From a virus (Duplodnaviria > Caudoviricetes): 59,784 nucleotides of DNA. The stretch's first letter is position 1, and each line of letters opens with the position of its first letter. Below, piece after piece: positions 17,701 to 54,564 of the stretch. Made by a program: the position numbers and the translations under genes. Location of the stretch: positions 1-59,784 of IMG/VR virus record IMGVR_UViG_3300027741_000069; one strand, written 5' to 3'. Below the pieces are notes generated by a model that did no database searches, was not told where the DNA came from, and saw only the letters and a program-made list of their open reading frames with translations.

Positions 17701-20700
17701 ATTAGAATTATTTGGAATTTTAGTCAACAGCCTGACCCAATAATAATATTTTACAACAATATTTCCAGATTGGGTATTTGTATAACTGACTGATGAATAT
17801 CTACTATCATCACCATTTAATGGAATCCCAGGTTTATTAGAGGAAATATGTTTGCTCGGCGGTGTATCACTTTCTGACCACTCATAAACATGAATTTCGC
17901 TGCCAGGGAAAATTTGCCCCCAAGTTTTTAGTCTATAAGTTAATTCAGATTGTTCATAATCAATATATCTAACCTTAGACAAATCCCACCAAGTCTTCCC
18001 AAGTTGCGATGATGCCCAACTATGATCTAAAATTATACCATTTGAGTATAGACTGCCAGAATTGTATACTGCTGGGTCTGTGCTAGATCTATAGTCTAAA
18101 TCCTGATCAACTATCCCCAAAACTTTGCCTTTTATTGGATCAACGATATCTAATAGAGATAAAATATTGCCGTTGGTTTTGTTAAACAAACTGATATTAT
18201 TTATTGATGTGATGTCAATAGAGGTTTCTTGACTACGCAATTTGCCCCATGTGTTTGAGTTATTGGCATTAAAATATTCATAAATTTCTCCAATTTGATT
18301 AGACTTTCCTACCCCAAAATTTGATCCTATCAGGATTCTATTTTCAGTTATCTCTATTGAGTTTCCAAACCCATCACCACGTTTTGAATTCCCATCTAGA
18401 AATTCTTTTGTGTGTATAAAGGACTGTGGTCCTGTACCTAACATCTCATACAAATATACGCACCCGGTGCCCGGATTTCCTTGATAAAATTTAGTATTAT
18501 TGCTATCAAAAATTGTACTATTTTGATCATAAGTCTCAAATAGTTTGGCAGACCCAAGCAAACTTGAAATCAACAATGATTTATCATTCGGGGATATCTT
18601 TACTCTATGTCCAAACTCTTGATTGTTTTGATTCACAGGACTTACTAAGGTTTGTTCAATTTCATAAACTTTACCTTTCTTAGCATAACAAAAAACAGCG
18701 CCACCAGAGCTTTCAGACTGAATAATATTAGGTGCACTGATATATAACTTATCTGCTTCTTTTGAACATTCAACACTAAATCCAAAATCTGATCTTGTGT
18801 TTAATTTTCTTATTGGGAAAATCTTTTGCAATAATTTGTCTGATTCAAAAACATAAGCCGAGCCAATAGGAGCCGATGACGGAAGGCCATCAAATGGTGC
18901 TCCAACTAGTAACACATCAGATTCTGAACTAATTTTAATACTATGCCCAAATTTACTACCAGACAATCCGCCAACTAACTTAATTCCAGAGTACTTATAG
19001 TGTGGCAATAATCTGACTCTAATTGTCACAGTGTTAACCCCAGATAATTTATTTTTATATTCTAAGAATTTTTGATCACTCAATAATATATTATCAAAAT
19101 TATTCAAATAGTCCAATCCGGGTATTAAAAATTCCCCATTAATATCCACAGCCAAGTATCCTGAAACTTGTGGATCTTTAAATGCCGAAGATATTAATTT
19201 ATATGTTCTTATTAACGGATTAAACTCAATATATTGAACCCGTTTTTTGGGAGACATCAAAGAATACTTATAAACTGCCCCATTGCCAGGAGATCCAATA
19301 TAAAGCGTTTTGGAGTCGGCAGTTAAGCTGACACTATACCCGAATAAACTTGTATTTTCATTTTTCGGCGGACAAATTATTTGAACAATTGCGTAAGTAT
19401 TTAGATTTGTATCCCAAGAACATACAGTCACTAAACCTGTTTCGTTTTTAAATTTTGGAGCTCCTGATATTAGATATTCATTACTCATATCCAAACAAAA
19501 CCCTAAACTTTTCATTCCTGGATTCTGACTATCAATAGTATCAACGGTATAGTTTCCGTCATTGAAATAAATGACATGAATCCTTCCGCGCCCATTATTT
19601 TTTTCTGGAGACCCAGCTGCTATAAATTTTTGATCTGGACTTGATGATATAGAGGACCCATAACCAACAAATTCCATATCATCAGACGTTTCTAAACTAA
19701 TTTTCCTCGATAGCTTCCAATTTTCGGTCTTTTTGTAAAATGCCCACCGATTATTTTCATCTGAATCTACCCAAAATTTATTTCTAGTCAACCAACTATT
19801 TTGTTGAGCATCTGCTATTACTGATGGAATATTTTGATATCGAGCCGACTTTAATAAAAACAACTGTCCGATATTTTTTAATGATCCCTGTTTCAAAAGA
19901 GAAACTTGATTTTGATCTATTCTAATAGAAAACTTATTTAAGTTAATAGATTCTTCAACTATATACAACCCATCAAATTGTGGGTGTAACTGTTTAATAA
20001 TGATCGGATCATTAGCTATTAAGGAGTTTGTTTTTGTTGTTGTTACAATAGCCAACATATCTAATCCATATTCCACAGATTTAATATTATTGTTAGATTC
20101 ATCAATTCTATAAACTTGCCAATTAAATGATAAATCATTTGCGACCCAGATGTGTTTTCCAATAGTCATTGACTGAATATTTGTTGCATCCACCGCACTA
20201 TTTGCTATATCGAATAAAGTGAAATCGACATCATCCAAATTGACATATCCAGCTGTTGGTATATCAGATTCGCGAATCGTTTCATTATTTCTTGTTAAAA
20301 ATCCTGGAAACGCCTTTGACCCCATCAAATATTCTTTATTAGATTGCACAGGTATAAACCCAAGGTGATCGCTATTCTCATCAATGATTATACCAAAACT
20401 ATTTGTTATACTATCTGAATCACCTAGGTCAATATCTAATGTTAGATTGCTGTTTTGTGCCCCATACTCTCCGACCTTTATTGCCCACTCCTCGTCAAAA
20501 GTAATACTGGCTGTTCTATTATGAGCACCACTAGAGGATGCAGACAACAGAGAAGAGATAGATTTTTTTGTCCCTTTATCTTTTATATAGCCTTGATAAA
20601 ATTTGGTTTGAGTCGTCAAATCAATATTTAAATCTGACAGGTAATTCCTATATCTATAACCAATTAATCCTGAACTTAATTTTCGAAACTGTGGATCGAT

Positions 20701-23700
20701 GAATTCTGAATCAACATCATAAAAATCAATAAATTTAGATGCATTTTGTGAGAAGTTGGGCAATAGGCCAGTTCTAATAGAAGATTTTGGAATTTCTGTC
20801 CAATAATTTATATCAAATGTATCCGACGCCGAAATCTTCCGTGTCGATACGTAATATTTGTTTTTAAAGCTAACCATGTCTCCTTTTAGATAGTCCTTAC
20901 CCACTTTCCATAAATCAGGCAAACTATTATTAAAAATAAACCCTGGAGAAGAGATTGTCCCATCCCATCCGCCACTTTTACGACCAACCAACTTTAATCT
21001 AAATTGTCTACTTCCCAATTCTGGTTTATAAATTACATCGTTGAAAATGGTAGTATTGTCAAAAACTAACACATGCTCGAATTGGATCAGATTTAAGTCA
21101 ACCAAAGCAAAAGTTTCACCGACTACAGATTCGATTGAAAAGACCCCGACATCTCTATTCACAGATAAGGTTTCTATTTTAATGACGTTAAAGTTTGAAT
21201 CCAATATGGTCATTTGATTATTCTTATCAGACAAGTCATCAACAACACTATTGGTCAATAAAAGAGTTAGTTTTTTGCCCACTGGGCTTAATACCAATAT
21301 ACTCTTTAATTGCCAAGACTGTAAGGTCCATGTCAAGAATTCTTTTGCACTTAATACCCAATTTTGCTGCTCTTTAAGATCAGGATTGAATGTATCAAAA
21401 ACAAAACCCATTGACATTAAATATCTTTGATAGCTGATTAAAAAATCCACTACTTGTTGTTTATTGGTGAATTCCTGTCCATAAGAAATTAATATCTTTT
21501 CTTTTTTATAGGCATTAAAAATAACAGCTGATGTGTTTTCTACCGTAATAGTATAACTATCATTGGCAGAAACATCACTAGGTATTATAATAAAATATGG
21601 CACATTTGTGTTATACCCATTAACGCTATATCCATTTTGTGTTTTTTCAATTATCACCGCACTATATGTTGCTCTACTAATTGGAGATCCCTTATTAAGA
21701 TAAACTTTATAATTTTCTGATGGTATGATAATAGATTCATTTGTGCTAGTTGGACTATATTGTTCTGCCAAAACTGTCAAATATGTTTTGTCGGAAAAAC
21801 CCGACATTTTATATGATAATTGAACTGAACTATTATCTAATAGATTTCTTAAATTTTTAAAAGGATCAGCTGCTGAGTTAACAATATATGCTAATATAAA
21901 ATTTAAATACCCCGAAGCTCTACTAATAGTAGAACCGATGGGTTCTCCGTTTAACCGAATACTATCTGTAGTTACCCTTAAATTATTTTGTCTATTTACA
22001 TATTCTTCAGTTTTTTGATTTTTAAAATATCCATTAATATCAAATAACGTTCCAAAATAAAATGCTGGCTTCATTAATGCCAATGCTCTCTGAATAGCAA
22101 ATGGATATTCGCTGGACTTTCGCCAGGCAGTTTCGACAGGGCCATGATCCCCAAACGAAAAACTATCGGAAATTCTATTAGAGTTGAATTTAGAAATTAT
22201 GATTGATATTGGCGGCAACAAGACGCCTTGATCATCGACTGGTATAATTGCTGATAGCCCTTGTCTAATATAATTCTTATCAATACCTTTTCTTTCCCCC
22301 TGCCTAATAATTCCATTTTCTAAATCTAACCAAAGATTTTTATTATCAGACGTGTATGGTGCTGGACCATAAATTTGATGCCACCAATCTGGTTTTTTGC
22401 TAAAACCTAACATCTCCCAAGGGTGCGTATTTGGCCTATCTGTATCATATAAAAATTTATATATCCCTCTCCACCAACCAGGCAACGATTCTATGGATAA
22501 TTTGTTTTTGCTATTTTTATAATTATAGGAAAATAGGTCACTATTAATGATATAACTATTGGTTGAAAAATCTAACCTATTATCCCCAACCCAAGTTAAA
22601 AAACTGCTTGATAATATTTCATTAAATTCTTTTAAAGAATAATCTGTGTTTCTAAATTGTCCAGGAATATATTCATTAATATCAACAAATTTTACATCAT
22701 CATTTCTTTTTATATTATTAAAAATCCTAGTCTCCAATTCCAACAATAATTTGTCTCTAATATCTCCAAATGCAGGGGTTAAGCTACCATCATGCCCCTG
22801 TATGACCGCCGTTGGTTTTTGATATGTACTATCGATAAAGATTTCTGGTAAAAATTTGGGATAAAGACCTAACTTTGTTGGGGTTTCTGGTATAAAATTT
22901 CCATCAGTATCATATTCTTTAATCTCTAATATTCCGTTGACACTCAAATCAACATTTTCATCAATTATTATTGTTGGAAGCACTTTACTAAAGACATAAT
23001 CTTTTCCATACGACAATAAATTCTGGTTATAGTAAACTAAGATTGCTCTAGATTGCAATTTCGATGGATCAAATTTTGATCCTATTCTATATTGTTTTTC
23101 AATTTTATTCGTTATTTTATAGCTAAAAAGTTTATGTCTGCCATATGGGACCATATCACTATAAAACCAAGGAAAAGAATTATTTTTATTTTGATTAATA
23201 ATCTCTAATAGAGAATCAATAGTTATATTGTTTTGATTTTGCTGTATTAAGGTCAAAATTAAATCTAAAAATTTATTTTTAAATTTTACGTATTCTTGTC
23301 TTGCAAATTCCAAGGCATTTATAAAGTTTGCCTGTTTTGAAATCAAGAATAACGAAGAATAAATTATTGGAGAAGCATGTTGCAGTATGTTACCACCTAA
23401 TTTAGATACATCCAGATCTCTAATATTTTCAAATTTTGAATTTTGTTGAATAATCGAAAAATGATTTCTTAACTGGCCAAAATTCAAATCCAAGATCGAT
23501 GCATTCTCACTATTATATTCTAAATTAGATGGTATTTGATAATATCCCAGATTGCTCACAGACTTGCTGTAAATTAAAATATCAATCTTATCTCCTAATG
23601 TTAAAATTGTGTTGTCGATTTCAATGGTATTAATTTCATTGATCTTGACTATTTTAAAATTAGCTTCTGACAATAGAGAATTATTTAAAAATACTTTGAT

Positions 23701-26700
23701 ATTTGGCAACAACATTGATGGTTCTGGGAGAATATCAATGATAAAATTGTTAGATGTTCCAGAATAAGATGCACTAATAATTTGATACTGTCGAGTTTTT
23801 TCCGACACTAAATTCCAAACACTAACATTGGTGTGAGTTGTTGCGGTGATATTCTTTCGTAAATATCCCAAAGATATAAGTTCTTTTTTTGGCTTATTAT
23901 TGTCAAGATATTCAAAACTATCGTTGTCAAAATTATTTTCAAAAGTGATTTCAGAAGACGTGTAACTACTTGTGGTGTAATGGAGTGGGAACCCTAAAAC
24001 TGCATCAATCCCGCCTGACCCGATCTTATAAGAAAATACCTTTGTTCCAGAAAAGCTACTAGCCGGATATACAGCAGTTGAGGATAAGCTAATGCCGTCA
24101 GAATTAAATACATCAAATTTTGGTTGTTGATTTTTTTTAGTTTTTATTTGTGCTTCAATCCACAAAGTTCCGTTAAAATAAAAAGTAACACCTTTATTAA
24201 TTCCAGCTTTAGCGACAACAGCACTACCAGCAACTGCAATATCAGCTGGATCTGGAGACACAATAAGTCTAACCCTCGGGTTTTTAATCTTATATTCAAC
24301 ATTGACTAATAGATAATCAGTTGATCTTTCTAAATACATCGAGGTGTCAGAATGGATTGTGGCCACTGTACCAATACACACATCGTTTGTGTCATAAATT
24401 TTAGATCCTATAGAAATTTCACTTTGAAATTTTGTTTCATATCCAATAATTTCCGACAATCCAGATGCGATTCTAATTTTTACATTATCAATTAGGAATT
24501 TAGAAATTGGCATTGTGGCTTTAAATCTGATGGTATAATTTTTATTACCGTCATATTTCACAGAGGTAATTACACCATCGGGCGACCCAGATCCCAGGTC
24601 AAGACCCTCAATTAATGTTGCCCCTAATAAGTCATCACGACCTATAACCCGCCAATCGTACTCATAATCTATATTTAAATTGGGTTTAAATATATTATAG
24701 TTTCGTCCAACAGGGATCGGCTTTGATTTGGCTCGGAAATTAATATATACGGGTTCATTTCTCAACAAACCTGTTCCTATATAATCATAATATTCACGTT
24801 CCACAGACTCATCTTGCACCCCATATTCAACAGTATAAACTTGAGATCTAACTAATGGATCGAGATCATTAGCGAACAATACTCGTTGTCCATTTTTCAA
24901 TGAAAGGTCTGGTAGACTTAACGTCTTACTATGTTGTATTTGGTTAAATGCGTCTTGATATTTTAAATCAATTTGATCAACAGGGCGCATGCCAATCGAT
25001 CCAGAATTAAACATTTGAATATTTGGACGAAATTCAATGATAGGTCTTCTAGCTCTTGACGACTGGTTAATCGATATTCTAGTCCCATTATATTCAGCAG
25101 ACGCTTCAATTATTGATATATGATACCAACAATTCTGTCTAGACCAAGCATTTAAATCCATACTGGATCTATTAGAAACTACATATTCAGGATCAATTGG
25201 ACCATAATATGGTTCATCTATATTATCCACATCAAAATTCACAGCATCCAAGCCCATTAACGATTCGTCGATATTGAGTTCAGGACAAACCATCAAAGAA
25301 TGATCAACCAACACTATACCTTCATCGGACCCAACACCTTCCACAATGTAAGTGTTGTTTATATATTTGGTTGGGGTAATATGTTTACCAAATTGAATTT
25401 TCATACCATTGGATAGAATAATACCACTGCTATTGGACCATTGTTTTTTCCCGAGTATATCAGTTTCAACATCAACAGCTTCTATTACTCTATCCACCAA
25501 TCTAATTTTACCAAAAGCGTCTGGGTTACTGGAATCTTGATAATATAATTCATCAAGCTGAGCTGTGAGTGATGGTACAGGTTTTAAATATCCTTCTTTA
25601 GTTTTAAAAAACTCTTTATGTGCATTTTTTATTCCAGTTCTGACATGAATTCTCGAATCAACAGCAATATTCGAAACATACTGCAATGTGTTAATTGGGT
25701 TTTGACTGTCAGATCTATCAACAACTACTCTCCAAACGCCACGCCTAAATTCAGGATCTATGGCGCCACCTGTATTTTTAGAAAACCAATCCTGATCAGA
25801 ATCTGAATCAGAAATAAAAACAAAAGTTTTTCCATCTGTATCCAATGTTATTCCATCAAAACTTATAGTGTTGGGAATATATGCATTGATATCTGAAAGT
25901 TTTGATCCATCTACATATGCAAATGTTGTATCCAAAGCAAAATCAACAACCGATGACATTGGCATTTTAAGATAGAAATCTTGTGATGTAGACAAGGGAA
26001 CGAAGAACTCAACTTCGCCCACATCCTCACCATTATTTGTAACCCCAAAAACGTCCCTTGTACTAATTAATGGAGAAATATTTTTTGTTCCTGATATTCC
26101 TGGTTGCGTTTGTATCCAAAAACCACTTCCCGGCTGCGATACTTTGAACTTATATACTCCACCACGCATCAAAGTAATTTCAGGATTTTTTGTTTCCGTG
26201 TTATCAAATTGATAAGAATCATTGATAGCATCTTTTGAAATGATAAATGTCTGATGTGATTTTACAACTGTTGTCCCAATTAGAATTGGGTCCGGTCCAT
26301 TTGGTAGCCAATAATATTGACTAAAGTTAACAAACTTATCTAAATCTATTAATCCACTAAAGGAATAATACTCTGATGAGAACAATCTGTCGTGATTATT
26401 AACTTTAGCACCATAATATTCTAACTTGTTTAATAGATCAACATAGCTACTATAAAATTTGATATTATTTGATTCGGAAACAACAACACTGGGTTCAAGC
26501 TGATAATTCCTACGATCTTTATTAGTTTCTAATAAATATCCATCATTAGGTTTATATGTGGGAGCGAATTTTCTACCAATATATCCATCTAATCTAACAA
26601 AATTGGCATCGGAAATCAATTGATCCAATGTAGCATTTAGGAATTTCTCATTAGTTTCGGTCCTAAATATACTTGGTAAAAAATCTGAAGTTTTTTTATT

Positions 26701-26706
26701 GGCCAT
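14785..26706 (-). CDS. Giant baseplate wedge/structural protein (3973 aa, at the gp7-like position) with FG-GAP-type propeller and CBM-like modules
   Basis: Uninterrupted ORF immediately downstream of the gp6-like gene. FGxS/VxxS...GAP repeats at ~18270-19690; WxxGxxYxxGDxVxF-type modules at ~20800-20915 and ~15880-15990; VxNPGSGY repeats at ~16080-16290. Confidence 0.7.
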   Translation of the reverse strand: MANKKTSDFLPSIFRTETNEKFLNATLDQLISDANFVRLDGYIGRKFAPTYKPNDGYLLETNKDRRNYQLEPSVVVSESNNIKFYSSYVDLLNKLEYYGAKVNNHDRLFSSEYYSFSGLIDLDKFVNFSQYYWLPNGPDPILIGTTVVKSHQTFIISKDAINDSYQFDNTETKNPEITLMRGGVYKFKVSQPGSGFWIQTQPGISGTKNISPLISTRDVFGVTNNGEDVGEVEFFVPLSTSQDFYLKMPMSSVVDFALDTTFAYVDGSKLSDINAYIPNTISFDGITLDTDGKTFVFISDSDSDQDWFSKNTGGAIDPEFRRGVWRVVVDRSDSQNPINTLQYVSNIAVDSRIHVRTGIKNAHKEFFKTKEGYLKPVPSLTAQLDELYYQDSSNPDAFGKIRLVDRVIEAVDVETDILGKKQWSNSSGIILSNGMKIQFGKHITPTKYINNTYIVEGVGSDEGIVLVDHSLMVCPELNIDESLMGLDAVNFDVDNIDEPYYGPIDPEYVVSNRSSMDLNAWSRQNCWYHISIIEASAEYNGTRISINQSSRARRPIIEFRPNIQMFNSGSIGMRPVDQIDLKYQDAFNQIQHSKTLSLPDLSLKNGQRVLFANDLDPLVRSQVYTVEYGVQDESVEREYYDYIGTGLLRNEPVYINFRAKSKPIPVGRNYNIFKPNLNIDYEYDWRVIGRDDLLGATLIEGLDLGSGSPDGVITSVKYDGNKNYTIRFKATMPISKFLIDNVKIRIASGLSEIIGYETKFQSEISIGSKIYDTNDVCIGTVATIHSDTSMYLERSTDYLLVNVEYKIKNPRVRLIVSPDPADIAVAGSAVVAKAGINKGVTFYFNGTLWIEAQIKTKKNQQPKFDVFNSDGISLSSTAVYPASSFSGTKVFSYKIGSGGIDAVLGFPLHYTTSSYTSSEITFENNFDNDSFEYLDNNKPKKELISLGYLRKNITATTHTNVSVWNLVSEKTRQYQIISASYSGTSNNFIIDILPEPSMLLPNIKVFLNNSLLSEANFKIVKINEINTIEIDNTILTLGDKIDILIYSKSVSNLGYYQIPSNLEYNSENASILDLNFGQLRNHFSIIQQNSKFENIRDLDVSKLGGNILQHASPIIYSSLFLISKQANFINALEFARQEYVKFKNKFLDLILTLIQQNQNNITIDSLLEIINQNKNNSFPWFYSDMVPYGRHKLFSYKITNKIEKQYRIGSKFDPSKLQSRAILVYYNQNLLSYGKDYVFSKVLPTIIIDENVDLSVNGILEIKEYDTDGNFIPETPTKLGLYPKFLPEIFIDSTYQKPTAVIQGHDGSLTPAFGDIRDKLLLELETRIFNNIKRNDDVKFVDINEYIPGQFRNTDYSLKEFNEILSSSFLTWVGDNRLDFSTNSYIINSDLFSYNYKNSKNKLSIESLPGWWRGIYKFLYDTDRPNTHPWEMLGFSKKPDWWHQIYGPAPYTSDNKNLWLDLENGIIRQGERKGIDKNYIRQGLSAIIPVDDQGVLLPPISIIISKFNSNRISDSFSFGDHGPVETAWRKSSEYPFAIQRALALMKPAFYFGTLFDINGYFKNQKTEEYVNRQNNLRVTTDSIRLNGEPIGSTISRASGYLNFILAYIVNSAADPFKNLRNLLDNSSVQLSYKMSGFSDKTYLTVLAEQYSPTSTNESIIIPSENYKVYLNKGSPISRATYSAVIIEKTQNGYSVNGYNTNVPYFIIIPSDVSANDSYTITVENTSAVIFNAYKKEKILISYGQEFTNKQQVVDFLISYQRYLMSMGFVFDTFNPDLKEQQNWVLSAKEFLTWTLQSWQLKSILVLSPVGKKLTLLLTNSVVDDLSDKNNQMTILDSNFNVIKIETLSVNRDVGVFSIESVVGETFALVDLNLIQFEHVLVFDNTTIFNDVIYKPELGSRQFRLKLVGRKSGGWDGTISSPGFIFNNSLPDLWKVGKDYLKGDMVSFKNKYYVSTRKISASDTFDINYWTEIPKSSIRTGLLPNFSQNASKFIDFYDVDSEFIDPQFRKLSSGLIGYRYRNYLSDLNIDLTTQTKFYQGYIKDKGTKKSISSLLSASSSGAHNRTASITFDEEWAIKVGEYGAQNSNLTLDIDLGDSDSITNSFGIIIDENSDHLGFIPVQSNKEYLMGSKAFPGFLTRNNETIRESDIPTAGYVNLDDVDFTLFDIANSAVDATNIQSMTIGKHIWVANDLSFNWQVYRIDESNNNIKSVEYGLDMLAIVTTTKTNSLIANDPIIIKQLHPQFDGLYIVEESINLNKFSIRIDQNQVSLLKQGSLKNIGQLFLLKSARYQNIPSVIADAQQNSWLTRNKFWVDSDENNRWAFYKKTENWKLSRKISLETSDDMEFVGYGSSISSSPDQKFIAAGSPEKNNGRGRIHVIYFNDGNYTVDTIDSQNPGMKSLGFCLDMSNEYLISGAPKFKNETGLVTVCSWDTNLNTYAIVQIICPPKNENTSLFGYSVSLTADSKTLYIGSPGNGAVYKYSLMSPKKRVQYIEFNPLIRTYKLISSAFKDPQVSGYLAVDINGEFLIPGLDYLNNFDNILLSDQKFLEYKNKLSGVNTVTIRVRLLPHYKYSGIKLVGGLSGSKFGHSIKISSESDVLLVGAPFDGLPSSAPIGSAYVFESDKLLQKIFPIRKLNTRSDFGFSVECSKEADKLYISAPNIIQSESSGGAVFCYAKKGKVYEIEQTLVSPVNQNNQEFGHRVKISPNDKSLLISSLLGSAKLFETYDQNSTIFDSNNTKFYQGNPGTGCVYLYEMLGTGPQSFIHTKEFLDGNSKRGDGFGNSIEITENRILIGSNFGVGKSNQIGEIYEYFNANNSNTWGKLRSQETSIDITSINNISLFNKTNGNILSLLDIVDPIKGKVLGIVDQDLDYRSSTDPAVYNSGSLYSNGIILDHSWASSQLGKTWWDLSKVRYIDYEQSELTYRLKTWGQIFPGSEIHVYEWSESDTPPSKHISSNKPGIPLNGDDSRYSSVSYTNTQSGNIVVKYYYWVRLLTKIPNNSNRSISIAEMEQSILNPNSQSIPYVGFLSKNSMAIFNSRNYISGSDIVLRVNYDKVLNSNLNHNEYALVGDGDSKLKIPDTIVDKMIDSLSGIDIMGEIVPDFNLSPQYNTGILLRPRQTMILNKSEALRNVISFLNSVLSTDSIVLKIQSSPEFKKSRLNQIDQFPTDFDFKVDSKEELAYIGAKNNEVALVVSDSDFGGIWTLYKFNDGFFNLIKNQTSNTKKFWTTKEWYASGFSSNLTINFIVDQYNAIAQLGIKSGDVIKVLTKHGFEIYYFDTPNDSRLIGLEYGTIEFLENIWDQTQIGFDSTATDQEGFDGNNSIEIRQILYALRYEILTGSLENIFNQMIFVLINYILSEQNNVGWAFKTSFIRVIHNIRALEQTPNFIKDNQNYYVDYINEVKPYRTKIRDYVLSYSNLDVGKIKSTDFDLPSSWDGDLKMYRSPSGEYPVKDGQSLLQPQYQDWRNNLHYSIESIKIVNPGLGFLLPPSIKIVSLDGFGSGATAIATINPNNGSLASIRVTNPGSGYVSTPLIMVNGDGFMAELVPVMTNKKIRSFKIVLKFDRISYTTQVTEWLPNKFYKFGSLVSYQGQGYRANTNVPAFELFNYSLFSRISDSDYISANDRIASIYRPDYYQSSKEIGENGSINLSRLIPGIIRSANTNEGTPLDFGDDLSQPLALKNVDQNQYIISGGAFDKGEKVANSPEELVPGIIFESISIKVITKEVNLDDNLDFQSDRMLAYRIVKDTVGNVGYFAMSRSASAVLLRELNWNDTVIYVDDVSVLTLPNPANNIPGVIYISGEKIRYFAIDKVTNTIGQLIRGADKTSIPEVHQIYSIIEDASSRLEVPSSISEQTQSIAFSKNIRVVGLTFNVPNNLLQIREALTLKIGSNILPYGEYYLLSIDNSTGTPVVLVTFTKTASNRILDGLIINVTFSQERIWLNPSPPGSTRVTDGLGLMAASTIQANFLKTKLY

Positions 26707-38951: not shown

Positions 38952-40712
38952 ATGCTAAAAATTAAATCCATTACTGCGAAAAATTTCCTGTCTATTGGCG
39001 CAGTTACCCAAAGTGTAAATTTAGATAGAGATAACCTAACATTGGTTATTGGTGAAAATTTAGATTTGGGCGGCGTTGATTCTGGTTCTAAGAACGGCGT
39101 TGGTAAATCAGCAATGCTTAATGCCATCAGCTATGCATTATACGGACAAGCACTGACTAACATAAGAAAAGACAATTTGATTAACAAATCAAATGGTAAA
39201 AATATGTTGGTTACTGTGGAATTTGAAAAAAATGGCATAGACTATAGGATAGAGCGTGGTCGCCGCCCTAACACTATGGCATTTTATGTCAGCAACGTGG
39301 AACAGGAAATTACTGACGATAGTCAAGGCGATAGTAGAGAAACACAAGCAGATATTGATAGAATCCTAGGCATGAGTCACGACATGTTTAAACAAACAGT
39401 GGCTTTGAATACCTACAATGAACCATTTCTTAGCCTACGCTCAAGCGATCAAAGAGCTATTATTGAACAATTACTTGGTATAACTGTTCTTAGTGAAAAA
39501 GCCGATCGACTTAAAGAACTAATCAAAGTAACCAAAGATGGCATTACCCAAGAAGAATTTAGAATCAAAGCGGTTGGGGATGCCAACATGCGTATTCAGG
39601 ATCAAATTGAAAACTTAAAACGTAGACAGCAGATTTGGTTAAAAAAGAAAACTGACGATTTAAACCAATTTCAAATTGCGTATGACGAACTAAGCCATTT
39701 AGATATCGAAAAAGAATTATTAGCACACAGAGATCTTTCTGAATTTAATCAAAAAAACAAAGATCTAGTAGAACTCAACAAAGCAGTTAAACGTTCAGAA
39801 TTGGATTATGGTAGAGAAATCAAACATCAACAAAGTTTACAAAAAGAATTATCTGCATTAAAAGAACATCGTTGCCACTCTTGTGGTCAGGAATATCACG
39901 ACGCCAATCATGATCAATTAGTAAAAGGCAAAGAAGAGGAACTTGCTTTAAGTATAGCCAATAGCAATGAGCACACCGAAACTATCGCCGAATTAAATGC
40001 TGCTATTACTGAGTTAGGGGCGTTAGGCACACCACCAAAAGTTTATTATGACAGAGAGTCTGATGCTTTCGAACATCGAAGCAGTATGGCAGGTTTGTTA
40101 AATCAGATATCCAGTAAACAAGCCGAAACAGATCCTTATGAAGATCAAATTGAAGAAATGATTGATAAAGGATTGGAAACAGTCAGTTACGATCAAATCA
40201 ACGAATTAATTTCTCTAAGAGACCATCAGGAGTTTCTACTTAAATTGCTAACCAACAAGGATAGTTTTGTTCGTAAAAAGATCATTGATCAAAATCTCAG
40301 CTATTTAAATGCTAGACTTGGGCAATATTTGGATAGAATCGGGTTACCACATACTGTTCAATTTAATAATGACCTAAGTGTTAGTATTACTGAATTGGGC
40401 AGAGAATTGGATTTTCACAATCTAAGCCGAGGTGAAATGACTAGACTTACATTAAGTTTGAGTTTTGCATTTAGGGATGTTTGGGAGAATTTATTTCATC
40501 CAATTAATTTATTATTCATTGACGAATTATTGGATAATGGTTTGGACCCTGTTGGCATGGAAAATGCTTTATCGATATTAAAAGGCATGGGTCGTGAGAG
40601 AAATAAATCAGTTTGGTTTATCAGCCATAGAGACGAATTAATAGGCAGGGTAGGTAATGTACTCAAAGTAGTTAAAGAAAATGGATATACTGAGTTCAGA
40701 GCTTATGAATAA
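38952..40712 (+). CDS. gp46: Recombination ATPase subunit, Rad50/SbcC-like
   Basis: Walker A NGVGKS, coiled coils with a CHSC zinc hook, signature LSRGE, Walker B LLFIDE, and H-loop ISH. Confidence 0.93.
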   Translation: MLKIKSITAKNFLSIGAVTQSVNLDRDNLTLVIGENLDLGGVDSGSKNGVGKSAMLNAISYALYGQALTNIRKDNLINKSNGKNMLVTVEFEKNGIDYRIERGRRPNTMAFYVSNVEQEITDDSQGDSRETQADIDRILGMSHDMFKQTVALNTYNEPFLSLRSSDQRAIIEQLLGITVLSEKADRLKELIKVTKDGITQEEFRIKAVGDANMRIQDQIENLKRRQQIWLKKKTDDLNQFQIAYDELSHLDIEKELLAHRDLSEFNQKNKDLVELNKAVKRSELDYGREIKHQQSLQKELSALKEHRCHSCGQEYHDANHDQLVKGKEEELALSIANSNEHTETIAELNAAITELGALGTPPKVYYDRESDAFEHRSSMAGLLNQISSKQAETDPYEDQIEEMIDKGLETVSYDQINELISLRDHQEFLLKLLTNKDSFVRKKIIDQNLSYLNARLGQYLDRIGLPHTVQFNNDLSVSITELGRELDFHNLSRGEMTRLTLSLSFAFRDVWENLFHPINLLFIDELLDNGLDPVGMENALSILKGMGRERNKSVWFISHRDELIGRVGNVLKVVKENGYTEFRAYE

Positions 40713-40757
40713 AGTGTTTATTTTTTATTACAACTAAACTGGACTAACTAATAACAT

Positions 40758-41279
40758 ATGACAAGTCCACAAAAGGCCAAAGGCGGCGGTTTCGAAAGAC
40801 AAATTGCAACTTTTCTCACTGATCTATATGGTGAGAAATTTATCAGAACACCTGGTTCTGGTGCCTATGTGGGCGGGTCAAATAGTAAACGCAAGGAATT
40901 CTTGCATGAGGGACAAATTCGCAGTTTTAAGGGAGACATTATTCCCGGACAGAGTTTTCCCAAACTCAATGCTGAATGTAAATTCTATAAAGATTTTCCA
41001 TTTCATCAATTTTTTACAGGTTCAATTAAAATCTTAGACTTATGGATTGCTCAATGTATGGAAGCCGCAGATTCTGGGGATTTCAATATCTTGTTCATGA
41101 AATTTAATCGAAAAGGCACATATGTTGCCGTACATCATTCTGACACCACGTCTTTCAATTTAAAAAATCATTTTATATATACACATCAAACTCATGGCTC
41201 ATGGATCATCATGGATCATCAAACATTTTTCGAGACCAACTCCAAGCAAGTAAAACAACTTTGCAGTAGTCAAAGTTAA
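40758..41279 (+). CDS. Holliday-junction resolvase-like PD-(D/E)XK nuclease (Hjc-type)
   Basis: KAKGGGFERQIA...R.PGSGA...GDII...AECK motif order. Confidence 0.75.
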   Translation: MTSPQKAKGGGFERQIATFLTDLYGEKFIRTPGSGAYVGGSNSKRKEFLHEGQIRSFKGDIIPGQSFPKLNAECKFYKDFPFHQFFTGSIKILDLWIAQCMEAADSGDFNILFMKFNRKGTYVAVHHSDTTSFNLKNHFIYTHQTHGSWIIMDHQTFFETNSKQVKQLCSSQS

Positions 41280-41284
41280 TCACA

Positions 41285-41756
41285 CAGACACCGGCTAGTA
41301 CTGGCTTATTTCGAGTACCTATGATAACTGGACCTAGGGTCGCAGGGACGGAAGACTTTCGGCTGTGGAAAGCACTCAACGAGTATCCTTAACAGGACCA
41401 TGATGGGATATGCCTATAAACCCGTTTCGTTGTTAAAGAAATCAAAAGGCTAAAAGAAGGGATAGTATTCCCTACGTTTGTAAGTATGTTAGCGTATATT
41501 TTACAAACTGCCGTCGTATAAAGACGCAACTCGAGGTACCGGACGACCGCCTCTGTAATTGTTGTAACGCTAAGTGATGGTGTGAACTCGGATGAAATCA
41601 CATTGACTTTGCCCTGCCTGGGCAAAGTGTGACAGTTAAATCTGGATGAAGTAATTTCGCTTTAGCGTATTAGTAATTTACTTCAATTTAAAAAAAAGAA
41701 AAAGAAATGATGAGCGGTGTTAACTGCGAGTCATTGGACTTGTGTAGCAAGTCCTT
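41285..41756 (+). ncRNA. Candidate large structured non-coding element (family not recognised)
   Basis: ~480-nt gap between convergent genes in an otherwise densely coding region. Visibly GC-richer than its flanks, with more than 12 stems and two loop-to-downstream pairings. Strand is inferred from G-U-compatible pairs. Confidence 0.65.
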
Positions 41757-41775
41757 AATAAGTTTAAAAAACTTT

Positions 41776-41994
41776 TTAGAAAAATGGAATACCGGATTTT
41801 TTTGTGACATCTAAATTTTCTTTGATTAGCTTTTCAATGATCTTGCGTTCCTCAGTACTCAACATCATAGCGTCATCATAGCTAATTCCGCCACGCATAT
41901 ACCAACTAATCCTAATAGTTTCATCTTTTAAGGCTTTTGACTCTTTTTCCTGGTCCTTAATAAGACCAACAATCTGCTCATCAGTCAGGGTCAA
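41776..41994 (-). CDS. gp51-like tail/baseplate assembly chaperone segment, probably expressed as a -1 frameshift extension of the upstream gene
   Basis: WYMRGGISYDDAMMLS.EER motif. Only a TTG start with no SD, and the frame is open back through the TTTTTTC site of the upstream ORF. Confidence 0.65.
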   Translation of the reverse strand: MTLTDEQIVGLIKDQEKESKALKDETIRISWYMRGGISYDDAMMLSTEERKIIEKLIKENLDVTKKSGIPFF

Positions 41995-41999
41995 AAGCC

Positions 42000-42848
42000 T
42001 TAAACGAAAAAATTTGCATAATCAAATTCGATATTGACTTCATATGATTTAAGACATTCACCATTGCCACAATTGACACCTATTGGTTTAATACGTGCAG
42101 TTTCTACATATTCTAAAAGTCGATCTTGAATACTTTTTATCATGGATGATTCTGAATTATTAAAAAATTCTCTAATATAGTCTCTATCTGATATTCTTTC
42201 TCCGTCGTCAAGTTCAATATATTCGACACTCTCTACCAAAGAAGTGATGCCTAACTCAACAAGTCTATTCATCCCATCAGTTACCATTTTTAATTTAACA
42301 TCAGGGTCAATGTCATCACCCATTGACAGGGCGTTATTAATTTTTTGTTCTTCAAAGTTTAATCGATTTGACTGATTTACTGCATAATATTTTTGTGGGT
42401 GCAACTTAATTTTTAATGTTTTATATATAACAGGTTTAGTATAATCTGGACATGTGATAGCTGTTAGTATTGGTTTAAGATCTATATCATAATTATTATC
42501 AAAATTACAATGTGGGCAAACAGTCTCAAAGTGCATATATTCCCCATAACTAGCAATGCGTATTGCTATTAATATAGCGTCAACATCAACACTGGGCATC
42601 TTCCAAGCATCTTTTATATTTGGGACACAGCTTTGTATCACATCAACAACTCCTTGACCGTTTAGCAACGCATCAGGAGTTTTAAGCGTGATTTCGTCTC
42701 GAGTTGTCATTGCATAAATCCCAACTTCTCCAGTTACTGGTAGTTCTAAGCAGTTATCGCCCCACCATTTCCCTTCACTTGGGAGTTTAATATATACTAC
42801 TGGTTGTCGAAAAAACTTGCTTAAGGGGTTTTTTTGTTCGAGAGTCAT
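42000..42848 (-). CDS. gp26: Baseplate hub / tail assembly chaperone, T4 gp26-like
   Basis: YIKLPS.G...AMT.RDEI.L......Q.C.P...D.DAILIAIRIASYGE..CPHC plus a C-terminal CxxxxC; adjacent to the tape-measure gene. Confidence 0.75.
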   Translation of the reverse strand: MTLEQKNPLSKFFRQPVVYIKLPSEGKWWGDNCLELPVTGEVGIYAMTTRDEITLKTPDALLNGQGVVDVIQSCVPNIKDAWKMPSVDVDAILIAIRIASYGEYMHFETVCPHCNFDNNYDIDLKPILTAITCPDYTKPVIYKTLKIKLHPQKYYAVNQSNRLNFEEQKINNALSMGDDIDPDVKLKMVTDGMNRLVELGITSLVESVEYIELDDGERISDRDYIREFFNNSESSMIKSIQDRLLEYVETARIKPIGVNCGNGECLKSYEVNIEFDYANFFV

Positions 42849-45438: not shown

Positions 45439-45487
45439 AATTTAATTCAAATGGATGTATACTCTAAAATGCGGACTAAATACATAC

Positions 45488-47236
45488 ATGGATTACAAAG
45501 AGACTCTAATAAATTGGCTAAGTTCCAATAAACATTCAGCACTTTCAAGCTGGATAAGAAACAAACATGATATAATTGCTTGGTTAGATGAACAAACAAA
45601 TCAGTTTAAGACTAGGAATCTAATAGAAAAAGTCTATATCACATTGAATGGGCCACAACCAGTCTGCGAGTTTGGAAATCCTAGACAATTTTGGACTTTT
45701 GATAAGGGTTATAAACCAGGATGTATATTAGGCAATAAGTGCAAATGCTTAAAAAAACTCAGACTTGAAAACCAGCGCATAACTCTAATGGAAAAATATG
45801 GGGTGGATGCAGTGAATAAAATTCCAGGAATAGAGGAAAGACGAAAAAAAACTAATATTGAAAAATATGGTGTTGAATATTATTCAAAATCAAATAGTGC
45901 TAAGACCATTGCATCAGAAAAAAGAAAAAATACTACAGATGAAAAGAAGAAATTAACACTTCAAAAAACAAAAGAAACTTTTTTAAAAAAGTATGGCGTT
46001 GAACATCATATGAAATTGGTAGATCAGCAAAACAAAGTAAAAAACACTAATCAAATACGCTATGGTAGTAATACCCCGTTACAAAATAGTCAAATTAAAG
46101 AAAAATTTAAAAAAACTTTGGCAAATAGGACTTCTGAACAATTAGCAATTTCTGAAGTTAAAAAAAGAAATTCAATCCAGGATAATTATGGTGTTTCGTC
46201 CCCAAGCAGAATTGGTCTACCAAATTCAACTTTAAGTATCTTAGACAATACGGATCAATTTATATCTTTTATATCTGGAAAAACTAGAGAGCAAGTATTA
46301 GATGAATTGTCAATTGCAAGTCATACTCTGTATCTATACAGCAAAAAATATCAAGCTACAGAACTGTTTTCTAAACCATTGAGAAGCCAATTTGAAGTTG
46401 AATTATCAGAATTTTTAAAAAGTCATAATGTTGATTTTGATCAAAATAATAGATCGTTGATCACTCCACTCGAATTAGATTTTTATATTCCTGAATTAAG
46501 TTTGGCGATAGAATGTTCGGGATTATATTGGCATAGCGAACTGAGTTCAGGTAGGGATTCTAAATATCATTATAATAAATTTCAAAAATGTAAACAAATA
46601 GGTATTACTCTAATCACTATTTTTGAAGACGACTGGAATTTTAATCGATCTGTTGTGAAATCTAGATTGGAGCATATTTTAGGCGTTAAATCAAAACAAA
46701 AAATTTATGCTAGAAACTGTGCAGTGATGACTGTCGATTACGGGGACATTAAAGATTTTGTTGAAACTCACCATTTGCAAGGAACAATTAAGTCCACTAT
46801 TAATTTAGTTTTAAAGTTTAACGATGAACTTGTTGCAGTTATGACTTTTGGAAAGTCTAGATATAACAAACAATATGAATATGAAATATTGAGATTTTGC
46901 ACAAAAGGATCGGTGGTTGGTGCTGGTGGTAAATTGTTTTCCTATTTTTTAAATACATTTAACCCCGAATCAGTAATTAGTTACAGTGATAACTGTTGGG
47001 GATTGGGTAATATGTATAAGGAATTGAGATTTGAATTAAAGTCTGAAACAATAGGCTATCATTATACTGATTACAAAAAAAGATATAACCGTATTGGTTT
47101 TCAAAAACATAAATTGGTTATGGAAGGTGAAGATGCAAATTTGACAGAATGGCAAATTATGCAAAATAAAGGCTTTGATCGCATTTGGGATTGCGGGCAG
47201 AGTCTTTGGGTACACACAAAAGAAATAGCTAAATAA
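45488..47236 (+). CDS. Free-standing Hef-like homing endonuclease (KYGV repeats, Vsr/DUF559-like nuclease, GNAT-like C-terminal domain)
   Basis: Repeated xKYGVx units, ELDFYIPE..LAIE.SG.YWH...K...C...GI.L..IFED.W, then IYAR.C...H.QG...VMTFG..R...E..RF...SYSD...IWDCG. Start placed at ATG 45488, 5 nt after TAAATA. Confidence 0.75.
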   Translation: MDYKETLINWLSSNKHSALSSWIRNKHDIIAWLDEQTNQFKTRNLIEKVYITLNGPQPVCEFGNPRQFWTFDKGYKPGCILGNKCKCLKKLRLENQRITLMEKYGVDAVNKIPGIEERRKKTNIEKYGVEYYSKSNSAKTIASEKRKNTTDEKKKLTLQKTKETFLKKYGVEHHMKLVDQQNKVKNTNQIRYGSNTPLQNSQIKEKFKKTLANRTSEQLAISEVKKRNSIQDNYGVSSPSRIGLPNSTLSILDNTDQFISFISGKTREQVLDELSIASHTLYLYSKKYQATELFSKPLRSQFEVELSEFLKSHNVDFDQNNRSLITPLELDFYIPELSLAIECSGLYWHSELSSGRDSKYHYNKFQKCKQIGITLITIFEDDWNFNRSVVKSRLEHILGVKSKQKIYARNCAVMTVDYGDIKDFVETHHLQGTIKSTINLVLKFNDELVAVMTFGKSRYNKQYEYEILRFCTKGSVVGAGGKLFSYFLNTFNPESVISYSDNCWGLGNMYKELRFELKSETIGYHYTDYKKRYNRIGFQKHKLVMEGEDANLTEWQIMQNKGFDRIWDCGQSLWVHTKEIAK

Positions 47237-54118: not shown

Positions 54119-54231
54119 TATAAATAAATTTGTTCACGCTTTTGTAGGATAATTAATTATATTACTATGGAAGTTTATGCAGTACCCCACTGCGTAGAGC
54201 ATAGAACGCTTAACACATAAGGAGCAAACAA
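54119..54231 (+). promoter_or_regulatory. Late promoter TATAAATA plus a structured ~100-nt 5' leader
   Basis: TATAAATA at 54119-54126, hairpin TATGCAGT-ACCCC-ACTGCGTA at 54176-54196, SD TAAGGAG at 54218-54224. Confidence 0.6.
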
Positions 54232-54564
54232 ATGGGACGTCCAATTAACAAACGTATTCTATCAGACGTAGTCGCTGATATCTTAGTAGGTACTACACCA
54301 ACTACAGCAAAAATTACCAAACAAGTTGGTAGCAAAAGATTTCAATTAGCTGGTCAAGGAACTGCAATTTTCACATTAGTATCCAAGGATGTTGCGAGTT
54401 TAGCCGCTGGTGAGATGAGTATTCGTGCAGTTGCAGCTGACGCATCAGTATTACAAGTTGCCAAAATCACACAACGCAAGTTAACTGCCGGTGATGGTAC
54501 AGTTCATGCTTGGAGTTTTGCTGCACCAGTTGGTACAGTAGTTCAAGTCAATACCACACTGTAA
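54232..54564 (+). CDS. Small, probably abundant virion protein (possible head decoration)
   Basis: Strong SD, consensus late promoter, capsid-like codon usage, and first structural-looking gene after the capsid gene. Confidence 0.6.
   Translation: MGRPINKRILSDVVADILVGTTPTTAKITKQVGSKRFQLAGQGTAIFTLVSKDVASLAAGEMSIRAVAADASVLQVAKITQRKLTAGDGTVHAWSFAAPVGTVVQVNTTL

What the first reader, a model, noticed from the sequence alone, without database searches (positions are those of the whole stretch)
41285..41690. Large, ornate, pseudoknotted non-coding element downstream of the recombination genes
This is the only long non-coding gap in the central region, and it is paired almost throughout. Stems seen: GACC/GGTC (41331-41341); CTTTC/GAAAG (41356-41372); a three-way junction closed by CAACGA/TCGTTG (41377/41432) containing TCCT/AGGA and ATGGG/CCCGT; AGGGA/TCCCT; GTTTGTAA/TTACAAAC (41476-41508); CGTC/GACG; GCAAC/GTTGT enclosing GAGG/CCTC; a perfect 9-bp ACTTTGCCC/GGGCAAAGT (41606-41628); GAAGTAA/TTACTTC. 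Two loops match downstream single-stranded segments as pseudoknots: GCCT 41412-41415 with AGGC 41447-41450, and TTAGCGT 41489-41495 with ACGCTAA 41567-41573. TTCGAGT (41310) could close a large domain with ACTCGGA (41586). This is far more structure than a terminator needs. I do not recognise it as tRNA, tmRNA, RNase P, a group I/II intron or a known riboswitch. Inference: an undescribed phage large structured RNA (ribozyme, scaffold or replication primer).
Basis: partly seen in the sequence, partly recalled or inferred. Interest (0 to 1): 0.9.

Follow-up and report, generated by a model that had tools for sequence, protein, structure and literature searches.

The report
Large pseudoknotted RNA of freshwater phages
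The gap holds a real, conserved, roughly 370-470-base folded non-coding RNA of uncultured T4-like lake phages, whose first third is an already catalogued orphan RNA motif and whose larger, uncatalogued core carries two short strands that always mutate together.

Summary
Window 41293-41651 (+), probably up to 41754, is one conserved non-coding structured RNA. It sits at the 3' end of the gp47/gp46/resolvase gene block of an uncultured T4-like phage. The first 143 nt are a full-length match to Rfam Polynucleobacter-1 (RF01718, 103 bits, cut-off 37), so it is not wholly undescribed. The following ~210-nt core has no Rfam match. It recurs downstream of gp46 in over 250 fetched viral loci. All 79 of 79 further loci found through the Polynucleobacter-1 part carry the core. 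A second phage clade has another, also covarying, 5' domain. Covariation is strong: 84.8% paired against 38-51% for slid controls, score 0.44 against 0.06-0.12. G-U pairs point to the + strand. No reading frame is conserved. Two 7-nt strands (RGAUGAW, 54 nt apart) change in concert by identity, in 235 of 245 loci. That is unexplained. Function is unknown. My best guess is a trans-acting RNA scaffold released from the mRNA 3' end. Transcript evidence is weak.

The parts
40758..41279 (+). Upstream gene: PDDEXK-type (RusA-like) resolvase. The RNA starts 14 nt after its stop codon.
   Evidence: Pfam PF24608 E 2.5e-26 and PHROG 244. ORF list.
41293..41435 (+). Domain A: Polynucleobacter-1 RNA motif (RF01718). 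Two hairpins, a third hairpin, then a three-way junction.
   Evidence: cmscan 103.3 bits, cut-off 37, E 3.7e-23, model positions 1-141 of 141.
41412..41415 (+). 5' strand of pseudoknot PKc (GCCU, in the loop of the last hairpin of domain A).
   Evidence: Loop and linker classes go together: GCC/GGC 76, GCU/AGC 12, ACC/GGC 14, GCC/GGU 10. Permutation test not significant.
41447..41450 (+). 3' strand of PKc (AGGC, in the linker before the core). It ties domain A to the core.
   Evidence: AAGGC is conserved in both clades.
41458..41473 (+). P1 hairpin (AGGGA/UCCCU). Relatives have GNRA-type loops; the second clade has a nested extra hairpin.
   Evidence: Seen in the alignments. Poorly aligned, 43% paired.
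41476..41508 (+). P2 hairpin. Its apical loop forms pseudoknot PKa.
   Evidence: All 12 pairs have changes on both sides; 81-85% of cells paired.
41489..41495 (+). PKa 5' strand (UUAGCGU, loop of P2).
   Evidence: 7 of 7 pairs with changes on both sides, 84.8% paired. The helix was not in the model used for the alignment. MI.
41567..41573 (+). PKa 3' strand (ACGCUAA).
41513..41517 (+). PKb 5' strand (GUCGU; GUUGU in most relatives).
   Evidence: 99.4% paired, 4 of 5 pairs with changes on both sides. Found by mutual information.
41526..41565 (+). P4/P5 long hairpin (GCAAC..GAGG / CCUC..GUUGU). It holds the near-invariant loop UACCGGACRACCG. The second clade has an extra hairpin in the 3' internal loop.
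   Evidence: P4 82.6% paired and P5 100% paired, with compensatory changes. Invariant columns.
41543..41547 (+). PKb 3' strand (ACGAC, in the apical loop of P5).
41586..41596 (+). Twin unit 1: A-CUC-RGAUGAW (here ACUCGGAUGAA).
   Evidence: Positions 5-11 change in concert with unit 2.
41606..41628 (+). P7 hairpin, 9 bp, between the twin units.
   Evidence: 93.6% paired, 8 of 9 pairs with changes on both sides.
41640..41650 (+). Twin unit 2: A-UCU-RGAUGAW (here AUCUGGAUGAA).
41648..41685 (+). Variable hairpin (GAAGUAA/UUACUUC in this lineage). Absent or different in many relatives.
   Evidence: Alignment.
41686..41705 (+). A-rich linker. On the - strand it is a U-run.
   Evidence: Sequence. A-rich in relatives.
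41706..41735 (+). C1 hairpin. Consensus: helix, UGAGC, GNRA-like loop, GCGAAA, helix. The window copy has a longer loop.
   Evidence: 5 of 5 helix pairs with changes on both sides. Found in 101 of 137 sequences; helix pairs WC 532, GU 4, AC 4; loops GAUA 26, GCAA 15.
41736..41754 (+). C2 hairpin (GGACUUG/CAAGUCC). With C1 it is a probable two-way terminator, or the 3' end of the RNA.
   Evidence: 94.4% paired, 6 of 6 pairs with changes on both sides. It abuts the stop codon of the convergent ORF.
41776..41994 (-). Convergent 72-aa ORF, conserved next to the gp26-like gene.
   Evidence: tblastn hits downstream on the opposite strand in most pattern-found loci. No Pfam or PHROG family.
42000..42848 (-). 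gp26-like baseplate hub gene.
   Evidence: PF12322 T4_baseplate E 3.2e-15; PHROG 150.

Best explanation
Window 41293-41651, probably running on to 41754, encodes one long + strand non-coding RNA of an uncultured freshwater T4-like myovirus.

Shown: it has no promoter-sized space of its own. It begins within about 10-14 nt of the stop codon of whatever gene lies upstream.
Inferred: it is made as the 3' end of the early/middle gp47-gp46-resolvase transcript and is probably trimmed to a stable RNA.

Shown: it is modular.
- Domain A is the Rfam Polynucleobacter-1 motif. A sister clade carries a different 5' domain.
- In this lineage a loop-linker pseudoknot may dock domain A onto the core (partial support).
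- The core is about 210 nt. Two interlocked pseudoknots lock two hairpins together.
- The core presents two copies of the 7-nt strand RGAUGAW, 54 nt apart, on either side of a 9-bp hairpin.

Shown: the two copies are kept identical while their sequence drifts freely (A/A or G/G; U/U, A/A or G/G).
Inferred: the two strands are read together. Either they pair with each other base for base, or one two-fold partner (a dimeric protein, or two copies of one nucleic acid) reads both.

Inferred: I take it to be a trans-acting RNA scaffold or ribonucleoprotein core that works during infection, not a terminator or a switch for a neighbouring gene.

Odds: a real + strand structured RNA, about 0.95. The trans-acting twin-site scaffold mechanism, about 0.45.
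For: Known part: RF01718 at 103.3 bits over the full model.

Conservation:
- nhmmer finds the element in 58 of the first 84 loci.
- It gives 113 hits in 120 loci fetched with a core pattern.
- 79 of 79 further loci fetched with a domain-A pattern, and with enough downstream sequence, carry the core.
- There is one copy per source in 97 of 100 sources.

Structure: covariation statistics on two alignments, including two pseudoknots that were not part of the alignment model. The alternative 5' domain has 10 of 10 predicted pairs with compensatory changes in 43 sequences.

Strand: G-U exceeds A-C in every core helix but PKb, where both are rare (9 against 6): 234 against 92, 125 against 37, 165 against 60, 54 against 0 and 59 against 21.

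Non-coding: a stop-free frame spans the core in 1 of 137 sequences on the + strand and 21 of 137 on the - strand. There is no 3-base periodicity.

Position: always downstream of gp46 on the same strand and upstream of the convergent 72-aa ORF and gp26. No conserved promoter motif lies upstream in 150 distinct upstream sequences.

Twin strands:
- R is A/A in 74, G/G in 60 and mixed in 3. W is U/U in 78, A/A in 51, G/G in 5 and mixed in 3. Position 9 is A/A in 5.
- Mutual information between the two R columns is 0.86 bit, against at most 0.14 with any other column.
- 235 of 245 loci are concordant, and the four main states are about equally common at 53-58 each.

Transcript: a lake metatranscriptome holds a 152-nt contig identical to 41240-41391. 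It bridges the gene end and domain A.
Against: No transcript ends, strand or abundance are known. The RNA-library evidence is a few low-depth contigs (depth 2-4.7) that could be DNA carry-over.

No partner was found.
- No column of gp46, the resolvase, the 72-aa ORF, gp26 or the 849-aa protein tracks the R state. The best corrected MI is 0.20 of 1.0 bit.
- State-matched complementary sites are not enriched in 1.8 Mb of flanks: 126 own-state against 118 flipped-state.

An outside partner that tolerates both A and G would not by itself force the two copies to be equal.

Folding energy is barely better than shuffles.

The 3' hairpins and the A-run also fit a plain two-way terminator. That would make part of the element cis-acting.
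Confidence: 0.45

Rival explanations
1. Cis-acting 3'-end element. The fold protects the gp47-gp46-resolvase mRNA from 3' exonucleases and, together with the two 3' hairpins, insulates the convergent early and late operons.
For: It starts right after the upstream stop codon and has no promoter motif. It sits between convergent operons. An A-run, two hairpins and a short U-run lie at 41686-41760; read on the - strand, the hairpins are followed by a long U-run.
Against: About 350 nt with three pseudoknots, a swappable 5' domain and invariant single strands is far more than stabilisation needs. The terminator scan finds no + strand terminator in 40600-42100. The equality of the twin strands has no role in this model.
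Confidence: 0.2
2. A ribozyme, for instance self-processing that frees the RNA from the mRNA, or another catalytic RNA.
For: Invariant nucleotides cluster in junctions and loops of a compact double pseudoknot. The RNA must be separated from the mRNA if it acts alone (inference).
Against: No known ribozyme family matches, even at E up to 10 or up to 1 in the sister clade. No cleavage evidence exists. No contig joints coincide with the twin strands.
Confidence: 0.1
3. Origin-of-replication transcript. A structured RNA whose purine-rich 3' tract forms a persistent hybrid and primes DNA synthesis. ColE1 RNA II and the T4 origin R-loops are the models (recalled, no call).
For: The A/G-rich tract 41686-41705 follows the fold. 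The position next to the gp26 baseplate gene recalls T4 ori(uvsY) beside genes 25/26 (recalled). The twin direct repeats could be iteron-like protein sites.
Against: G-U pairs and pseudoknot covariation show selection on the RNA fold, not on DNA. No GC-skew turn occurs here; the skew minimum lies near 34-36 kb, where gene direction changes. There are no data on replication.
Confidence: 0.07
4. Ligand-sensing RNA with a pseudo-two-fold pocket. It would be riboswitch-like, binding a symmetric ligand or two ligands.
For: Two identical strands are held by a rigid pseudoknotted frame. In 2010 Polynucleobacter-1 was scored as a possible cis-regulator with 'switch ?'.
Against: No gene follows on the same strand before 42889, beyond two convergent genes. 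There is no expression platform. A pocket should fix the identity of its nucleotides, yet R and W drift freely.
Confidence: 0.05
5. The twin motifs work at the DNA level, as two sites for one DNA-binding or recombination protein that requires identical cores. The RNA fold would be a separate matter.
For: An equality-without-identity constraint is typical of paired recombination sites with matching spacers (recalled, no call). The spacing is a constant ~54 bp.
Against: No relatives lack the 54-bp segment: both twin units were found in 245 of 302 loci, and many of the rest are cut short. There are no inverted-repeat arms around the cores. The flanking triplets CUC and UCU never homogenise, in 137 of 137 sequences.
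Confidence: 0.05

Closest known systems
Polynucleobacter-1 RNA motif (Rfam RF01718; Weinberg et al. 2010, PMC2864571)
   Same: 41293-41435 matches the whole 141-position model at 103.3 bits, with all consensus helices. The habitat fits: the paper lists Burkholderiales and fresh water/estuary, and the runs holding this stretch are lake, freshwater and river samples.
   Different: The Rfam model stops at 41435, but conservation and covariation run on for at least 215 nt. All 79 of 79 independently fetched copies carry the core, so the motif is the 5' domain of a larger RNA. Here it is in T4-like phage contigs, at the 3' end of an operon, not in a 5' UTR. A sister clade keeps the core but replaces this domain.
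Large orphan structured RNAs such as GOLLD, ROOL, OLE and raiA (recalled; their Rfam models were part of the searches)
   Same: Several hundred nucleotides, multi-domain, pseudoknotted, function unknown. GOLLD and ROOL are often phage-borne (recalled).
   Different: No Rfam family other than RF01718 matches. There is no tRNA neighbourhood: a tRNA was found in 1 of 40 loci scanned. It lies at a fixed position in T4-like genomes. The twin identical strands are not a described feature of those RNAs, to my recall.
Protein-sponge RNAs of the CsrB/RsmZ type (recalled)
   Same: A repeated single-stranded motif is displayed by a structured frame. With R = G the motif reads GGAUGA, close to the recalled CsrA site core GGAUG.
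   Different: There are only two copies. About half of all loci have AGAUGA instead. Some lineages have GAUAA or GUCGGAA in both copies. No CsrA link was tested.
Structured primer or origin transcripts (ColE1 RNA II, T4 origin R-loops; recalled)
   Same: A folded transcript followed by a purine/A-rich tract, next to baseplate genes as at T4 ori(uvsY) (recalled).
   Different: No sequence or model similarity was tested or found, and there are no replication data. Selection acts on the RNA fold.

Membership tests
Rfam RF01718 Polynucleobacter-1 | Covariance-model score at or above the curated gathering score (37 bits) | tested here: met
   103.3 bits, E 3.7e-23. Relatives score 113-118 bits, and 62 bits in a bacterial-collection contig.
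Rfam RF01718 Polynucleobacter-1 | Full-length match with the consensus helices | tested here: met
   Model positions 1-141 of 141. The alignment shows all helices, with only two single-base gaps in the closing helix.
Rfam RF01718 Polynucleobacter-1 | The family as defined (141 nt) is the whole functional unit | tested here: not met
   79 of 79 further copies are followed by the conserved core. A loop-linker pairing may join the two parts.
Any other Rfam 15 family (GOLLD, ROOL, OLE, RNase P, tmRNA, introns, riboswitches, self-cleaving ribozymes) | Covariance-model match to 41436-41760 or to the sister-clade version | tested here: not met
   Only chance-level rows, E 0.79-9 and far under the cut-offs. 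0 matches at E up to 1 in L103:5150-5800. Nothing at gathering score in 8 sister-clade loci.
tRNA / tmRNA | ARAGORN detection | tested here: not met
   0 genes in the window.
Intrinsic terminator | G+C-rich hairpin followed by a U-run on the transcribed strand | tested here: not met
   No + strand terminator-like site in 40600-42100. The 3' hairpins C1/C2, with an A-run before them and a short U-run after, may serve as a weak two-way terminator. That is an inference.
Riboswitch / cis-regulatory leader | Lies upstream of a regulated gene on the same strand, with an expression platform | tested here: not met
   The next + strand gene starts at 42889, beyond two convergent genes. The same layout is seen in relatives.
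Protein-coding gene | Conserved open frame and 3-base periodicity of substitutions | tested here: not met
   1 of 137 (+) and 21 of 137 (-) sequences are stop-free over the core. Column entropy by phase is 0.86, 0.89 and 0.96.
Box C/D-like K-turn pairs | C box RUGAUGA paired with D box CUGA by tandem sheared G-A pairs; an L7Ae-type protein | not tested
   Only a resemblance was noted: GAUGA preceded by GUGAC in both units. The motif definitions are recalled.

The most novel reading that the evidence does not exclude
The two RGAUGAW strands pair with each other base for base (G-G, A-A, U-U homo-pairs), forming a parallel-stranded helix inside the RNA or between two copies of it.

This would explain three things. 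Every variable position changes by identity and not by complementarity. All states are equally fit. No outside partner covaries.

A natural RNA built around a parallel homo-paired helix would be a new structural principle. To my recall, only synthetic GA-rich oligonucleotides and poly(A) are known to do this.
Probability: 0.15. Interest if true: 0.9.

Novelty: new variant of a known kind. Interest (0 to 1): 0.68.

Why it matters
- It re-reads an orphan Rfam family. Polynucleobacter-1 is not a 141-nt bacterial leader. It is the 5' domain of a phage RNA of about 370-470 nt, carried by a large group of abundant, uncultured freshwater T4-like phages.
- Large, strongly covarying RNAs without a known function are few. 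Each one studied so far has led to new biochemistry or new architectures.
- This one offers clean handles: three pseudoknots (two firmly supported, one partly), a 5' domain that is swapped between clades, and a pair of strands under an equality constraint. That constraint is unusual and directly testable by mutating one strand, the other, or both.
- It also flags a gap in annotation. Gene callers can place short false ORFs in this region.

Tried and rejected
- Folding energy as a test. z = -1.80 (+) and -2.43 (-), so it was not informative.
- Pairing of unit 1 with unit 2 (the RNAalifold P8). It is 97.8% paired but invariant, with no change on both sides, and no better than shuffles. It is broken in L023, where both units read GUCGGAA.
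- The hairpin GUGAU/AUCAC as drawn for the window (P6). 57% paired; its register differs between clades.
77% paired with no change on both sides, and it competes with PKb.
It is not conserved.
- Cultured relatives. blastn of 41285-41760 against 50,697 phage records gave no match. The resolvase finds only distant phages, at most 47% identity.
- Bacterial genomes. All but one were chance: nhmmer kept L320 (E 1e-26) and a weak L260 (E 0.0027). L320 is a 4.4-kb contig with 38.7% G+C and without gp46 or gp26 homologues.
- tRNA neighbourhood. 1 of 40 loci.
- Repeats of the C1 motif in the window. 7 loose matches against 4.4 expected.
- Complementary targets of the twin strands. None in the window within 1 mismatch, apart from the units' own opposite strand. 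No state-matched enrichment in the flanks.
- A protein partner among the neighbours. None tracks the R state.
- A promoter upstream. None conserved.
- PKc permutation test. Not significant.
- RNA runs. X2 and X3 laid nothing. X1 covers only 41240-41416 and 41518-41577. Parts without cover say nothing. The joints in X5 (41416/41530, 41479/41607, 41633/41926) came from relatives at 88% likeness and do not coincide with the twin strands.
- Literature. 'Polynucleobacter-1' occurs in one paper of the library. Two further searches found no description of this RNA. PMC10690425 catalogues over 10,000 candidate viral RNAs from the same kind of data. I saw only passages of it, and its supplementary tables are closed, so this RNA may be listed there. 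PMC9964418 (passages) was not relevant.
Full report
**Setting**

The window is a 59,784-base fragment of an IMG/VR virus record, about 17% complete. Its genes mark a T4-like myovirus:
- a gp55-type late sigma factor
- gp47/SbcD and gp46/SbcC
- a PDDEXK-type resolvase (40758-41279)
- a gp26-type baseplate hub (42000-42848, minus strand)
- a T4-type portal

The finding sits in the 496-nt gap between the resolvase gene and a convergent 72-aa ORF. The window has no tRNA or tmRNA gene.

**The known part**

Rfam places a full-length Polynucleobacter-1 RNA (RF01718) at 41293-41435 on the + strand. The score is 103.3 bits against a cut-off of 37, and model positions 1-141 are all matched. The family was published in 2010 as a candidate RNA of Burkholderiales and fresh water or estuary. 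It was scored there as probably cis-regulatory, with 'switch ?' (Table 1 row of PMC2864571). No other paper in the library uses the name.

For 41436-41900 Rfam gives only chance-level rows (E 0.79-9).

**Conservation**

- Using the resolvase protein, 582 related stretches were found in viral contigs and the best 80 were fetched.
- Iterated nhmmer found the element in 58 of the first 84 loci. It was always on the + strand downstream of the resolvase.
These gave 113 nhmmer hits, with one locus hit twice.
Of the 98 new loci, 79 had at least 420 nt downstream, and all 79 carried the 3' part.

Polynucleobacter-1 is therefore the 5' domain of a larger unit.

About half of the copies belong to a second clade that lacks this domain by Rfam (8 loci tested; E up to 1). 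That clade has another 5' domain of about 105 nt. All 10 pairs predicted by RNAalifold show compensatory changes in 43 sequences.

There is one copy per record.

In the pattern-found loci the element always lies after gp46 on the same strand and before the convergent 72-aa ORF and gp26. Variable insertions occur on either side.

No cultured phage among 50,697 records has it. Of 119 stretches that matched the pattern in bacterial and archaeal genomes, only one short contig is a true copy.

**Structure of the core**

| Measure | MAFFT alone, 137 sequences | Covariance model, 97 sequences, 96 not in its seed |
|---|---|---|
| Cells paired | 78.9% | 84.8% |
| Cells paired, slid partners | 37-50% | 38-51% |
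| Covariation score | 0.323 | 0.44 |
| Covariation score, slid partners | 0.07-0.10 | 0.06-0.12 |
| Shuffles reaching the observed values | 0 of 500 | 0 of 500 |

The covariance model contained no pseudoknots, so the alignment was not fitted to them. Even so:
- PKa (41489-95 with 41567-73) is 84.8% paired, and all 7 pairs show changes on both sides.
- PKb (41513-17 with 41543-47) is 99.4% paired, and 4 of 5 pairs show such changes.

Loop and linker classes go together: GCC/GGC 76, GCU/AGC 12, ACC/GGC 14, GCC/GGU 10, CUCC or CACC/GGG 6, against 1 clear mismatch class. A partner-permutation test had no power and was not significant.

Not supported:
- CGTC/GACG, the window's GUGAU/AUCAC as drawn, and a unit1-unit2 helix
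- the long-range TTCGAGT/ACTCGGA

**Strand and coding**

G-U pairs outnumber A-C in every core helix but PKb, where both are rare (9 against 6). The largest margins are 234 against 92, 165 against 60 and 54 against 0. The + strand is therefore the folded one.

Stop-free frames across the core are rare (1 of 137 on the + strand, 21 of 137 on the - strand). Substitutions show no 3-base periodicity.

Minimum free energy is not informative.

**Twin strands**

The core holds two near-invariant units, 54 nt apart: A-CUC-RGAUGAW (41586-96) and A-UCU-RGAUGAW (41640-50). The triplets CUC and UCU never vary (137 of 137). Positions 5-11 vary only together:

| Position | Identical in both units | Mixed |
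|---|---|---|
| R | A/A 74, G/G 60 | 3 |
| W | U/U 78, A/A 51, G/G 5 | 3 |
| Position 9 | G/G 132, A/A 5 | 0 |

- One lineage has GUCGGAA in both units.
- Mutual information between the two R columns is 0.86 bit, against at most 0.14 with any other column. For W it is 1.04 against 0.31.
- Over 302 loci (not de-duplicated by contig), 245 matched both units and 235 were concordant. The four main R-by-W states are equally common at 53-58 each.

This is identity covariation, not complementarity, and it is not a clade effect.

I found no partner.
- No neighbouring protein column tracks R.
- No state-matched complementary sites are enriched in 1.8 Mb of flanks.
- There is no exact target in the window.

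**The 3' end**

Beyond a variable hairpin and an A-rich run lie two further conserved hairpins (41706-35 and 41736-54). Their helix pairs all show compensatory changes.

C1 has a fixed internal loop (UGA opposite GAAA) and mostly GNRA-like loops. It was found in 101 of 137 sequences, and its helix gives no strand signal (G-U 4, A-C 4).

C2 abuts the stop codon of the convergent ORF. Read on the minus strand, the hairpins are followed by a long U-run. On the plus strand only 1-4 U follow.

I read them as a two-way terminator that may also be the 3' end of the RNA. This is inference.

**Expression**

One lake metatranscriptome holds a 152-nt contig identical to 41240-41391, which bridges the resolvase gene end and domain A. 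It also holds two shorter pieces from relatives, at depth 2-4.7. This fits co-transcription with the upstream gene, but DNA carry-over is not excluded.

No conserved promoter motif precedes the RNA. It starts within about 10-14 nt of the upstream stop codon in 150 distinct upstream sequences.

**Reading**

Shown: a conserved, single-copy, + strand, non-coding, modular RNA with three pseudoknots (two firmly supported, one partly) and twin strands under an equality constraint. Its 5' third is a known Rfam family.

Inferred: it is made as the 3' end of the recombination-gene transcript. It acts as a folded RNA in its own right, presenting the twin strands to each other or to a two-fold partner.

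Rivals, none excluded: a cis-acting 3'-end element, a ribozyme, an origin primer, a ligand sensor, or DNA-level sites.

Comparisons with GOLLD, ROOL, OLE, ColE1 RNA II, T4 origins, CsrA sites, matched recombination spacers and parallel GA duplexes rest on recall, not on calls.

**Novelty**

The core, the alternative 5' domain and the twin-strand constraint are absent from Rfam 15 and from the papers I could search. A 2023 catalogue of candidate viral RNAs (PMC10690425; passages only) may list the locus in supplements that I could not open.

Noticed in passing
window 54155-54234 (+): A second Rfam hit: freshwater-2 RNA (RF02980), 53.7 bits against a cut-off of 49.9. It ends where the ORF 54232-54564 starts.
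   Followed up: no
window 14785-26706 (-) and 3-6998 (-): Giant ORFs of 3973 aa and more than 2332 aa (the latter runs off the window), within a run of large minus-strand genes. They were not annotated here.
   Followed up: no
window 45455-47236 (+): A 593-aa homing/HNH endonuclease-like ORF (PHROG 3339, E 6.4e-115) sits between an unannotated 849-aa ORF and the gp20 portal gene.
   Followed up: no
L103:5247-5386 and 42 other sister-clade loci: An alternative 5' domain of about 105 nt replaces Polynucleobacter-1. It has a closing helix GAC/GUC, a hairpin, and a helix CCCA/UGGG enclosing a second hairpin. It is followed by a hairpin with the loop UAACUUA(A)G.
   Followed up: partly
L320:38-771: This is the only true copy in the bacterial/archaeal genome collection. 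It lies on a 4.4-kb contig of a 2.3-Mb genome, 270 nt after a tRNA-Cys gene, with no gp46 or gp26 homologue nearby. It may be a mis-binned phage contig or a different carrier.
   Followed up: partly
L028, L021, L150, L125, L119, L134 and others; alignment A1 columns 215-330: Long lineage-specific insertions (up to about 100 nt) sit in the 3' internal loop of the P4/P5 hairpin. Sister-clade sequences have a regular extra hairpin at the same place.
   Followed up: no
many loci, 60 nt upstream of the RNA (e.g. L090, L362, L410): In most carriers the gene just upstream ends with a conserved ...YYNGQ..VRVHGSHIKNK* tail and is shorter than the window's resolvase. tblastn with the window's resolvase misses it at E 1e-5. 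It may be a divergent homologue.
   Followed up: no
window 41574-41578 and 41629-41633: The GUGAY words that precede each twin unit also tend to vary together by identity: A/A 96, G/G 18, mixed 14 and more. This is weaker than for the units themselves.
   Followed up: partly
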